From the NCBI GenBank assembly GCA_000004985.1, contig GG739485.1: a DNA stretch of 1,240 bases, one strand, 5' to 3'. Every line of letters begins with the position of its first letter. Position 1 is the first letter of the stretch. Shown here piece by piece: positions 1 through 1,240 of this stretch. The notes beneath the pieces were generated by a model. It did no database searches. It had not been told where the DNA came from and was given only the letters and a program-made list of their open reading frames with translations. The DNA comes from Naegleria gruberi (Eukaryota). Made by a program: the position numbers and the translations under genes.

Positions 1-316
1 ATAAAAACATTCTTTCCAATTTTGATATTTTTCCATAATTAGTATGAAATGGTATAAATACACCTGTGGATTTATCTAATGGACTATCAATTAATTCACC
101 AAATCTTTGATGTATTTCATCTTGATTGGTAGAATTATTCAATGATTGAACATAGGGAAGAGATTCATTGCAAACTTCCATCACTTTATAAAATTCAGGA
201 TGATTCATTGGAGTTCTGCCATGTATTTTAACCTTCTCTAGAAATTCAGAATGTTGATGTGCTTTGGTTCTCTCTGCAACAAGTTTGTTTCCAGTTTGTA
301 GTGATGAGTTTTTCAT
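1..316 (-). CDS. 5'-complete, 3'-truncated CDS: N-terminal region (Mac domain) of a hexapeptide-repeat sugar O-acetyltransferase (maltose/galactoside O-acetyltransferase-like). Continues beyond window position 1. Apparent 1-nt frame discrepancy near 28..32.
   Basis: The reverse complement of 316..1 is an uninterrupted frame from ATG (316..314; upstream context gggaataaaaaagaATGa, A at -3) to the window edge: MKNSSLQTGNKLVAERTKAHQHSEFLEKVKIHGRTPMNHPEFYKVMEVCNESLPYVQSLNNSTNQDEIHQRFGELIDSPLDKSTGVFIPFHTNYGKISKLERMFL. The segments ...CNESLP...RFGEL...IPFHTNYG resemble the Mac-domain consensus (...yNxtLP...elFG...iePPFxcDYGxNI...), recalled from memory of E. coli Maa/LacA and not searched. The +1-nt-offset frame at the 3' end reads KNIKIGKNVF, the expected first hexapeptide turn. 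Codon usage is yeast-like. The ORF was absent from the supplied track, presumably because it is open-ended. Confidence 0.55.
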   Translation of the reverse strand, partial: MKNSSLQTGNKLVAERTKAHQHSEFLEKVKIHGRTPMNHPEFYKVMEVCNESLPYVQSLNNSTNQDEIHQRFGELIDSPLDKSTGVFIPFHTNYGKISKLERMFL

Positions 317-399
317 TCTTTTTTATTCCCTGAATTTGAAGAAAACCCGAATATTTTTTAGAGGGTTTTTTAGGGTCACATTTTGCTTTGCTCTAGCTG

Positions 400-406
400 T
401 GATTGG
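400..406 (-). promoter_or_regulatory. CCAAT-box-like element (CCAATCA on the minus strand; HAP/NF-Y-type consensus)
   Basis: The plus strand reads tgattgg at 400..406, so the minus strand reads CCAATCA, about 85 nt upstream of the minus-strand ATG. It is a short motif, so a chance occurrence is plausible. Confidence 0.2.
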
Positions 407-452
407 CTTGTCAACATTTTAAACTTTACCCCTAAAAAAACCGAAATTCACC

Positions 453-476
453 CTCAAAGTTGGGTGCAACTTTGAG
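453..476. repeat. Perfect inverted repeat CTCAAAGTTG-ggtg-CAACTTTGAG (10-bp arms, 4-nt spacer)
   Basis: Read directly: 453..462 ctcaaagttg, and 467..476 caactttgag is its exact reverse complement. It sits about 137-160 nt upstream of the ATG at 316. Confidence 0.85.
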
Positions 477-652
477 AAAGTTTTGTTAATAATTCAGGGC
501 TCGAAAAAAACAAAAAGTTAAGGGTATTTTACACAGTAATTGGTATCAAGTTTTTAGACTGTAAAAAAAGTAAATTTATTAAATTTGAACAAGTCTAAAA
601 TCAACTTGTCATTATTTGAAATCATGTAACAAAGCAACAGCTAAATATTGGC

Positions 653-769
653 CATCCACTCAAATTATCAAAGCTCAACTTGTTAATTACAGAAACATCA
701 ATATGACAATGTCATTAATCATCCACTCAAATTATAAATTGAAAGATCCAATTACATCCACTAATTTTA
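653..769. repeat. Dispersed direct repeat: CATCCACTCAAATTAT at 653..668 and 720..735 (16/16 identical), plus a degenerate third copy CATCCACT-AATTTTA at 755..769
   Basis: Read directly from the sequence. The copy-to-copy spacing is 67 bp and 35 bp, neither a multiple of 3. All copies lie inside the supplied 70-aa ORF but fall in different reading frames. Confidence 0.8.
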
Positions 770-981
770 CCATGGCCATGTTGTTTCCACTTATTCAAAT
801 TCAGTGTATTTCCAATCAGATTCAATAATATTAATTCCAAATAATTGTAGTAACAAATAAGAAATCTCTCCTAACAATTCCGAATATTGTAATATTAATG
901 AGTATCATCCTCATCACTAATAAATAAATAATCAATAATTAATAATAAGAGTAAACTTACTTGACGATAGATCTGATCAAT

Positions 982-999
982 AATGTTGATAATGTTGAT
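982..999. repeat. Tandem duplication of AATGTTGAT (two exact copies)
   Basis: 982..990 aatgttgat and 991..999 aatgttgat, flanked by gatcaat / gataaa. Confidence 0.85.
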
Positions 1000-1099
1000 G
1001 ATAAATTAGGTTGAAAACTAACCTTTAGCATTTAGAGATTAGAACTTCATCCAAACTCAATAGATTCCAACTAGTAAAGTCAAATAAAGCTAATATAAA

Positions 1100-1194
1100 T
1101 GTGTAAATTAATTGGTAATGGCAATTTTAATCAAGTAAACCTACAACATTTTGCAATTGTGTATTTAATGTGAGATGTCATTGTGTATTAATTC
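1100..1194. repeat. Three related TGTGTA-WW-TTAAT(T) motif copies: tgtgtaaattaatt (~1100..1114), attgtgtatttaatg (1156..1170), attgtgtattaattc (1180..1194). ATTGTGTATT is exact at 1156..1165 and 1180..1189.
   Basis: Read directly from the sequence. Copies 2 and 3 are 24 bp apart and differ by a single T indel. Confidence 0.7.
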
Positions 1195-1240
1195 AAATCA
1201 AAAAAAGCTTACTTAAACATATCAATTTAAATATCAATTA

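What the first reader, a model, noticed from the sequence alone, without database searches (positions are those of the whole stretch)
1..41. Apparent 1-nt frameshift in a T5/A5 homopolymer, right where the acetyltransferase hexapeptide motif should begin
From the ATG at 316 the frame reads ...IPFHTNYG-K-I-S-K-L-E-R-M-F-L, using codons GGA(34..32) AAA(31..29) ATA(28..26). The frame offset by one extra base reads AAT ATC AAA ATT GGA AAG AAT GTT TTT over 29..3, which is N-I-K-I-G-K-N-V-F. With the preceding YGK this gives YGKNIKIGKNVF. That closely matches the conserved start of the left-handed beta-helix in this family; from memory, E. coli Maa has ...CDYGYNIFLGNNFFANF... and LacA has ...FSYGSNIHIGRNFYANF.... 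The offset frame is closed just upstream by TAA (41..39), so the switch must occur within 38..29, i.e. in the run t28-t32 (minus strand GGAAAAAT). One extra A (A6) would restore a canonical protein. The candidate explanations are a homopolymer sequencing or assembly error, a genuine strain-specific frameshift pseudogene, or, least likely, a -1 ribosomal slip on the Lys AAA codon. Only about 10 downstream codons are visible, so the call rests on the motif match alone.
Basis: partly seen in the sequence, partly recalled or inferred. Interest (0 to 1): 0.55.

Follow-up and report, generated by a model that had tools for sequence, protein, structure and literature searches.

The report
One-base frameshift breaking an acetyltransferase gene
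A sugar-acetyltransferase gene at the left edge of the window has lost one base, most simply from a run of A's, so its reading frame breaks just where the enzyme's beta-helix begins; this is an ordinary gene-breaking lesion or assembly error, not a new mechanism.

Summary
The minus-strand ORF from ATG 316 reads ...VFIPFHTNYGK, then ISKLERMFL. The frame one base back reads NIKIGKNVF and is closed upstream by TAA 41..39. Fourteen intact relatives, all Bacteroidota or metagenomic and 36-63% identical, read FIPFHTN[FY]G[KR][HN]I.[IL]GKNVFINH... in one frame. A profile built from 13 of them scores the repaired fragment 82.3 bits, against 66.1 as read and 62.9 for the shared 96 residues. None of 5000 random 9-mers exceeds 72.9.

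The family is Maa/LacA-like hexapeptide O-acetyltransferases (E = 5e-15 to solved structures through the nearest relative). Pfam's Mac model is not hit, and NCBIfam equivalog cut-offs are not met.

Exactly one base is missing between AAA 31..29 and ATC 26..24. A6 to A5 in GGA AAA AAT is the simplest path, but loss of the C from CAT gives the same string.

There are no recoding signals: no X XXY YYZ heptamer, only a 5-nt run, no nearby structure, and no frameshift conserved in relatives. Two other public assemblies of this family carry the same one-A loss at Gly-Lys codons.

A real recent mutation and an assembly error cannot be separated here, because the source was not found and the window could not be extended. 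Interest is low.

The parts
29..316 (-). Codons 1-96 of the acetyltransferase gene in the ancestral frame (ATG 316..314 to Lys AAA 31..29): the N-terminal helical region ending ...STGVFIPFHTNYGK
   Evidence: Translation. 45% identity to P0001. 62.9 bits against the ortholog profile. Alignment A2.
28..32 (-). A5 run (T5 on + strand) within GGAAAAATATC. One nucleotide is missing between AAA 31..29 and ATC 26..24.
   Evidence: Orthologs have 12 nt (GGN AAR/CGN NNN ATH) where the window has 11. L004 and L006 read GGT AAA AAC ATC and L014 reads GGC AAG AAT ATT at this site.
3..29 (-). Nine codons in the frame one base back (AAT ATC AAA ATT GGA AAG AAT GTT TTT = NIKIGKNVF): the first turn of the left-handed beta-helix, cut off by the window edge
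   Evidence: It adds 19.4 bits to the profile score and no random 9-mer comes close. All 4 near-invariant ortholog residues in this stretch are retained. It aligns to NVKLGKNVY of S. aureus SACOL2570.
2..28 (-). Out-of-frame tail of the ORF as read (ATA TCA AAA TTG GAA AGA ATG TTT TTA = ISKLERMFL), still open at the window edge
   Evidence: It adds only 3.2 bits to the profile score.
39..41 (-). TAA that closes the downstream frame on its 5' side, bounding where the frame switch can lie

Best explanation
The left 316 nt of the window are the 5' part of a minus-strand gene for a Maa/LacA-like hexapeptide-repeat (left-handed beta-helix) O-acetyltransferase. It comes from a low-GC, poorly sampled lineage whose relatives are all Bacteroidota. 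The recorded DNA lacks one nucleotide between Lys-96 (AAA 31..29) and the conserved Ile codon (ATC 26..24). The simplest path is contraction of GGA AAA AAT (A6) to A5 by slippage at the homopolymer. As recorded, translation yields the N-terminal helical region plus an out-of-frame tail. By homology it would lack the beta-helix and the catalytic His-Pro motif, so the product cannot be an acetyltransferase. This is a non-programmed lesion, not a recoding signal. I lean slightly to a real, recent inactivating mutation (an early-stage pseudogene or a strain-specific allele) in an AT-rich, gene-poor genome. Shown here: the frame break, its position to within 5 nt, the family, and the absence of recoding signals. 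Inferred: that the base is missing from the organism's DNA and not only from the assembly.
For: Fourteen intact orthologs are single-frame across the site, and K-N codons there form AAA AAY runs. The family is supported by P0001 vs PDB Maa/LacA/SACOL2570 at 5e-15 to 6e-8, the repaired window fragment vs SACOL2570 at 0.006 aligned across the junction, and an ortholog vs NCBIfam Maa at 1.4e-31. The lesion is recent: 12 of 12 near-invariant ortholog residues are kept at positions 83-105 (4 of 4 after the break) against 3 of 15 at positions 26-77 (Fisher one-sided p about 3e-5, by hand), and there is no stop in 96 codons at 28% GC. For a real mutation: the adjoining 924 nt have 23-29 stops in every frame, no open stretch over 79 codons, and no Pfam, Rfam or tRNA hit. 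That fits a gene-poor, decaying genome and does not fit a gene shredded by a few indel errors. The N-terminal domain is unusually divergent. The nearest relative's copy is itself destroyed by an IS3-family element, so the gene is dispensable in at least one other lineage. Indels in A/T homopolymers are described as key first events of gene erosion in AT-rich symbionts (PMC3017870).
Against: No reads, no leftward sequence and no close relative are available, so an assembly error is nearly as likely. The same one-A loss at Gly-Lys codons occurs in two other public assemblies of this family, one of them a contig labelled 2.80x coverage. Deletions at A/T runs of 4-5 nt are the stereotyped long-read assembly error (PMC12007338). 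Only nine codons are visible after the break, so further lesions downstream cannot be excluded, and an intact downstream gene cannot be confirmed. The conserved-column test is biased, because the orthologs were fished with patterns taken from positions 35-42 and 86-93.
Confidence: 0.48

Rival explanations
1. Sequencing or assembly error: the organism has an intact gene (A6), and the consensus under-called the homopolymer by one base.
For: Everything around the break is pristine, as expected if nothing is wrong in vivo. Identical one-A contractions at Gly-Lys codons are seen in L023 (TTT GGA AA-C ACA; contig name ctg155170_2.80x_l; the rest of the gene is intact in the other frame) and in L024 (GGT AAA-ATG). 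Many of the 50%-cluster representatives of this family are aberrant frame-shifted fragments. Long-read deletion errors concentrate after 4-5 identical A/T bases (PMC12007338).
Against: Nothing is known about the platform or coverage of the source. The flanking 924 nt do not look like a gene broken by repeated indel errors: there are no long alternating open frames and no Pfam hit, so there is no independent sign of a noisy assembly. The other A5 run inside the ORF (ATGAAAAAC, 309..313) is in frame.
Confidence: 0.42
2. The break is bypassed in vivo, so some full-length enzyme is made. This could happen by -1 ribosomal slippage of tRNA-Lys on A_AAA_A, or by transcriptional slippage on the A-run (programmed or 'saviour' recoding).
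For: tRNA-Lys can re-pair perfectly from AAA 31..29 to AAA 32..30, and the -1 frame is the correct one. Frameshifts in A-tracts are rescued by transcriptional slippage in some AT-rich endosymbionts (PMC3017870).
Against: There is no tandem X XXY YYZ heptamer: in the zero frame the site is A AAA ATA. The zero-frame A-site codon ATA is used 3 times in the other 95 codons, so it is not a hungry codon. There is no stable structure around the site (-4.5 kcal/mol, z +0.55), though only 28 nt downstream are visible. The run is 5 nt, whereas the rescued tracts described are 9 nt or longer. All 14 intact orthologs are single-frame, so nothing is conserved.
Confidence: 0.04
3. Phase-variable (contingency) switch: the A-tract toggles between A5 and A6 by slipped-strand mispairing, turning the acetyltransferase off and on in a population.
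For: From general knowledge, not tested here: some bacterial surface-sugar O-acetyltransferase genes are phase-variable through homopolymer tracts. The lesion lies in a homopolymer early in the gene.
Against: A 5-6 nt tract is shorter than typical contingency tracts, which by general knowledge are about 7 nt or more. Orthologs use mixed codons at this site (GGG AAG CAT, GGT CTA AAT, GGC ATC AAT...), so the tract is not conserved. No population data are available.
Confidence: 0.04
4. There is no frameshift: the resemblance of the off-frame peptide to the family motif is chance, and the as-read frame is the true protein.
For: Only nine codons are visible, and the as-read frame is still open at the window edge.
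Against: 0 of 5000 random 9-mers and 0 of the 1210 other window 9-mers approach the observed score. The register is exact, with no gap relative to 14 orthologs. The as-read tail adds only 3.2 bits.
Confidence: 0.01

Closest known systems
Maltose O-acetyltransferase (Maa) and galactoside O-acetyltransferase (LacA), e.g. E. coli 1OCX and 1KQA, S. aureus SACOL2570 3V4E/3FTT, B. anthracis 3HJJ
   Same: There is significant sequence similarity through the nearest relative (5e-15 to 6e-8), and directly across the repaired junction (IPFHTNYGKNIKIGKNVF vs IPFDTDYGWNVKLGKNVY). Orthologs are about 185-211 aa with Hexapep repeats and a TE[ND]HP motif. The best NCBIfam model is Maa.
   Different: The score is below the equivalog cut-offs (109.8 vs 314 bits for Maa, 87.6 vs 347 for LacA). 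The N-terminal region is not recognised by Pfam Mac. The window's copy has a 19-residue N-terminal extension and is frame-broken. The substrate is unknown.
Homopolymer-indel pseudogenes of AT-rich host-restricted bacteria (e.g. Blochmannia, Buchnera)
   Same: A single-base indel in an A/T run inside an otherwise intact gene, in AT-rich DNA with a gene-poor flank.
   Different: The tract is only 5 nt, against 9-12 nt in those cases. The organism and its lifestyle are unknown, and the relatives are Bacteroidota rather than Gammaproteobacteria.
Gene-fragmenting homopolymer deletion errors in long-read or low-coverage assemblies
   Same: A one-base deletion at an A/T run of 4-6 nt that splits a gene in two frames. 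L023 and L024 show the identical pattern in the same family.
   Different: There is no information on the sequencing technology of the window's source, and no other sign of indel noise in the window.
dnaX-type -1 programmed ribosomal frameshifting on A AAA AAG
   Same: A Lys AAA codon preceded by A allows tRNA-Lys to re-pair in the -1 frame.
   Different: There is no second slippery codon, no stimulatory structure in the visible sequence, and no conservation in orthologs.

Membership tests
Maa/LacA-type hexapeptide O-acetyltransferases | Significant sequence similarity to characterised or solved members | tested here: met
   P0001 (45% identical to the window fragment) hits 3v4e, 3ftt, 3hjj, 1ocx and 1kqa at 5e-15 to 6e-8. 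The repaired window fragment hits 3ftt/3v4e at about 0.006 across the junction. An intact ortholog hits NCBIfam Maa at 1.4e-31 and LacA at 7e-25.
Maa/LacA-type hexapeptide O-acetyltransferases | Left-handed beta-helix built from hexapeptide repeats (Pfam Hexapep PF00132) | tested here: inconclusive
   Only the first 9 residues of the helix lie in the window, and they are out of frame. Five intact orthologs pass the Hexapep cut-off and truncated P0001 matches below it (22.1 vs 27 bits). The remainder of the window's gene lies off the left edge.
Maa/LacA-type hexapeptide O-acetyltransferases | N-terminal Mac domain (Pfam PF12464) | tested here: not met
   No Mac hit for the window fragment at E<=1, nor for any of 8 family sequences at E<=10. 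phmmer does align the N-terminal residues of P0001 to 3hjj, 2ic7 and 3ect from about residue 7-10, so the region is probably homologous but divergent.
Maa/LacA-type hexapeptide O-acetyltransferases | Catalytic His in the His-Pro motif and a C-terminal acetyl-CoA-binding part of the helix | not testable with these tools
   This lies left of the window. Orthologs carry TE[ND]HP. The catalytic role of this His is established knowledge for LacA and Maa and was not tested here.
Maa (PRK10092) or LacA (PRK09527) equivalog | Score above NCBIfam's curated equivalog cut-off | tested here: not met
   An intact ortholog scores 109.8 vs cut-off 314 (Maa) and 87.6 vs 347 (LacA). The window fragment has no NCBIfam hit.
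Programmed -1 ribosomal frameshift site | Slippery heptamer X XXY YYZ in the zero frame | tested here: not met
   The zero frame is GGA AAA ATA. 'A AAA ATA' fails YYZ, so only single-tRNA slippage on A_AAA_A is possible.
Programmed -1 ribosomal frameshift site | Stimulatory structure 5-9 nt downstream (or an upstream stimulator) | tested here: inconclusive
   Only 28 nt remain downstream. The 60 nt around the site fold at -4.5 kcal/mol, z +0.55.
Programmed -1 ribosomal frameshift site | Frameshift conserved among orthologs | tested here: not met
   All 14 intact orthologs are single-frame across the site. The frame-broken copies L023 and L024 break at different bases, in low-quality contigs.
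Transcriptional-slippage-rescued frameshift (endosymbiont poly(A) type) | Long A/T tract (9 nt or more in the described cases) | tested here: not met
   The tract is 5 nt. The tract lengths come from PMC3017870.
Phase-variable contingency locus | Tract-length polymorphism within or between populations | not testable with these tools
   No reads or sister strains are available. The source was not found in any collection.

The most novel reading that the evidence does not exclude
The A5 allele is not dead. The short A-tract may work as an on/off switch (A5/A6 slipped-strand variation), or it may be bypassed at low frequency by -1 slippage of tRNA-Lys on A_AAA_A. Either way, a divergent Bacteroidota-type sugar O-acetyltransferase would be expressed at a tunable low level.
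Probability: 0.05. Interest if true: 0.35.

Novelty: already known. Interest (0 to 1): 0.08.

Why it matters
It matters mainly for annotation. As recorded, the locus should be called a frameshifted (pseudo)gene of a Maa/LacA-like acetyltransferase, not a 'hypothetical protein', and the homopolymer should be checked against reads. There is also a small practical point: in this family the conserved Gly-Lys-Asn/His codons naturally form A-runs (GGN AAA AAY) that are repeatedly miscounted in public assemblies. No open biological question is advanced.

Tried and rejected
(1) Finding the source in order to extend leftward. Exact-pattern scans allowing T5 or T6 found nothing in genome contigs, metagenome contigs or viral contigs. 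blastn against plasmids and phages found nothing.

(2) Finding a close relative. The word-indexed search gave a single hit at 45% identity. Exhaustive phmmer against 1.84 billion representatives gave nothing above about 45%. Metagenome and viral protein-pattern scans gave nothing closer. So no orthologous locus is close enough to show whether the A5 allele is shared.

(3) Pfam and NCBIfam on the fragment itself gave no family hit. The family had to be reached through relatives.

(4) A hidden or decayed gene in 317-1240. The six-frame Pfam scan was empty, Rfam gave only a chance-level miRNA match, and there are no tRNAs.

(5) An oriC reading of the CATCCACT repeats. DnaA-box-like matches are only marginally enriched, 13 vs 7.0 +/- 2.5, so I dropped it.

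(6) A Bacteroidota-type promoter (TAnnTTTG) upstream of the gene. The only match is at 580-587 on the wrong strand.

(7) The 16-mer repeat in viral contigs gave ten single hits, consistent with chance.

(8) Alternative genetic codes (4, 6, 10, 12, 25) do not create a better reading of the locus.

Full report
**What is in the sequence**

The window is 1240 nt at 28% GC. On the minus strand an ORF starts at ATG 316..314 and runs off the left edge. It reads 105 codons ending ...STGVFIPFHTNYGKISKLERMFL, with GGA 34..32, AAA 31..29 and ATA 28..26. The frame one base back reads TAA(41..39) TTA TGG AAA AAT ATC AAA ATT GGA AAG AAT GTT TTT, which is *LWKNIKIGKNVF. The run at 28..32 is T5 on the + strand, A5 on the coding strand.

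**Is the off-frame motif more than chance?**

The fragment alone hits nothing in Pfam or NCBIfam. A search of 5.8 billion proteins found one relative, P0001, at 45% identity. It reads ...TTVFIPFHTNYGKHTKIGKNVFINHGCSFLDLGGITIEDEV... in one frame.

A pattern scan of one genome per prokaryotic species found 12 loci, all Bacteroidota (Saprospiraceae, Flavobacteriaceae, Cyclobacteriaceae, Runella, Marinoscillum and others), at 36-63% identity. A metagenome scan added one more, L014. The 12 genome orthologs are 185-211 aa. With L001 and L014, all 14 loci read PF[HY]TN.G..I..G..VF in a single frame.

I built a profile from 13 of these sequences.

| Sequence scored | Bits |
|---|---|
| Shared 96 residues | 62.9 |
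| As-read 105 residues | 66.1 |
| Repaired 105 residues | 82.3 |

None of 5000 composition-matched random 9-mers scored above 72.9. Among all 1211 stop-free 9-mers in the six frames of the window, only the real one reached 82.5. The register is exact, with no gap against any ortholog. The frameshift is therefore real in the sequence as given.

**Where exactly, and which base?**

Orthologs keep G-[KR] in the upstream frame and I/T in the downstream frame. They have 12 nt (GGN AAR/CGN NNN ATH) where the window has 11 (GGAAAAATATC). One base is therefore missing between 31 and 27.

L004 and L006 (GGT AAA AAC ATC) and L014 (GGC AAG AAT ATT) read G-K-N-I at this very site. Six of 14 orthologs have Asn there, so GGA AAA AAT ATC (A6) is a natural ancestral state. 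Seven orthologs have His (CAT/CAC), and loss of the C from GGA AAA CAT ATC gives the same string. The A6->A5 path is the most parsimonious, but it is not proven.

**What the gene is**

P0001 hits solved structures at 5e-15 to 6e-8: S. aureus SACOL2570 galactoside O-acetyltransferase, the maltose O-acetyltransferases of B. anthracis and E. coli (1ocx), and LacA (1kqa). The repaired window fragment aligns directly to SACOL2570 across the junction, IPFHTNYGKNIKIGKNVF against IPFDTDYGWNVKLGKNVY, at E about 0.006.

Intact orthologs pass Pfam Hexapep. Their best NCBIfam model is Maa (1.4e-31, 109.8 bits), followed by LacA. Both scores are far below the equivalog cut-offs of 314 and 347. Pfam Mac (PF12464) is not hit by any of 8 family sequences, even at E<=10. 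phmmer does align the N-terminal residues of P0001 to Maa structures from about residue 7-10.

I therefore file it as a Maa/LacA-like hexapeptide O-acetyltransferase of a Bacteroidota clade. It is not an equivalog of Maa or LacA, and its substrate is unknown.

In P0001 the Pfam Hexapep match starts at residue 78, the residue after Gly-Lys. By homology, the recorded ORF would lack the whole helix and the TE[ND]HP motif that orthologs carry. The catalytic role of that His is established knowledge for LacA and Maa and was not tested here.

**Is it recoding?**

I found no sign of it.
- The zero-frame site A AAA ATA is not an X XXY YYZ heptamer. Only single-tRNA slippage of tRNA-Lys from AAA 31..29 to AAA 32..30 is possible.
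- The next zero-frame codon, ATA, is used three times among the other 95 codons, so it is not a hungry codon.
- The 60 nt around the site have no structure (-4.5 kcal/mol, z +0.55), though only 28 nt downstream are visible.
- The tract is 5 nt, whereas tracts rescued by transcriptional slippage in endosymbionts are 9 nt or longer (PMC3017870).
- All 14 intact orthologs are single-frame.

**Real mutation or assembly error?**

This cannot be settled from the window. The source was not found by exact DNA scans of genome, metagenome or viral collections, nor by blastn against plasmids and phages. No relative closer than about 45% exists among 1.84 billion representatives. The leftward extension and a sister-strain comparison were therefore impossible.

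What can be said is that the lesion is recent or artefactual.
- The window keeps 12 of 12 near-invariant ortholog residues at positions 83-105, including 4 of 4 after the break. It keeps only 3 of 15 at positions 26-77. The Fisher one-sided p is about 3e-5, computed by hand.
- There is a caveat to that test: positions 35-42 and 86-93 were used to fish the orthologs.
- There is no stop in 96 codons at 28% GC.

Evidence for an assembly error:
- The exhaustive search turned up many aberrant, frame-shifted fragments of this family. My query carried the wrong-frame tail, which enriches for such hits.
- I recovered DNA for two of them. L023 reads TTT GGA AA-C ACA, one A short of GGA AAA CAC. This is the very site broken in the window, in a contig named ctg155170_2.80x_l, and the remainder of the gene is intact in the other frame.
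- L024 reads GGT AAA-ATG, one A short of GGT AAA AAT, at the second Gly-Lys-Asn.
- Long-read deletion errors cluster after 4-5 identical A/T bases (PMC12007338).

Evidence for a real mutation:
- The flanking 924 nt (317-1240) have 23-29 stops in every frame and no open stretch over 79 codons. They have no Pfam, Rfam or tRNA hit.
- That is not what a gene broken by a few indel errors looks like. It suggests a gene-poor, possibly decaying, AT-rich genome, where homopolymer indels are typical first steps of gene erosion.
- The N-terminal domain is unusually divergent.
- The nearest relative's copy is itself destroyed by an IS3-family element.

My probabilities are as follows.

| Explanation | Probability |
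|---|---|
| Real, recent mutation | 0.48 |
| Assembly error | 0.42 |
| Ribosomal or transcriptional bypass | 0.04 |
| Phase-variable tract | 0.04 |
| Chance, no frameshift | 0.01 |

**Verdict**

The phenomenon is ordinary: a one-base homopolymer indel breaking a common type of acetyltransferase gene. It is useful for annotation and quality control but is not a discovery. Interest is 0.08.

Noticed in passing
window 317-1240: This is 924 nt with 23-29 stop codons in each of the six frames and a longest open stretch of 79 codons (589-825 +). It has no Pfam, Rfam or tRNA hit. That is an unusually long non-coding stretch for a compact bacterial genome, and it hints at a gene-poor or decaying genome, or a non-bacterial source.
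   Followed up: partly
window 653-670, 720-737, 755-772: There are three direct copies of a CATCCACTCAAATTAT-like 16-18-mer, spaced 67 and 35 nt apart. The core resembles a DnaA box (TCATCCACT vs TTATCCACA), but DnaA-box-like matches in the window are only marginally enriched (13 vs 7.0 +/- 2.5). It could be a set of protein-binding sites. It remains unexplained.
   Followed up: partly
window 453-476 (and 317-500 on the minus strand): A 10-bp hairpin, CTCAAAGTTG-GGTG-CAACTTTGAG, is followed by a T-rich tail and is terminator-like on both strands. Two terminator-like sites were found where shuffles give 0.3. The minus-strand 184 nt upstream of the acetyltransferase ATG fold with z = -2.68. This may be a bidirectional terminator or a structured leader. 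There is no Rfam match.
   Followed up: partly
L001 17-511 and 449-1596: The gene of the window's nearest relative (P0001, Logan SRR14271344) is truncated after about residue 139-143 by an IS3-family insertion element (rve and HTH_Tnp_1 ORFs on the opposite strand). Both of the closest known copies of this sub-lineage are therefore disrupted.
   Followed up: partly
L023 about 3225-3260; L024 about 1070-1100: Two other public assemblies of this family carry a one-A contraction at Gly-Lys codons (GGA AA-C ACA, and GGT AAA-ATG), splitting the gene into two called ORFs. The conserved G-K-N/H codons form A-runs that look like a recurrent indel or miscall hotspot.
   Followed up: yes
orthologs in L002-L014; window 29-316: The N-terminal roughly 75 residues of this Bacteroidota acetyltransferase clade are never recognised by Pfam Mac (PF12464), even at E<=10, although phmmer aligns them to the N-terminal helices of solved Maa proteins. 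Pfam's model seems not to cover this clade.
   Followed up: partly
window 981-998: There is a perfect 9-nt tandem duplication, TAATGTTGA TAATGTTGA, inside the AT-rich non-coding stretch. It is also the partner of inverted-repeat arms at 408-428. Its significance is unknown.
   Followed up: no
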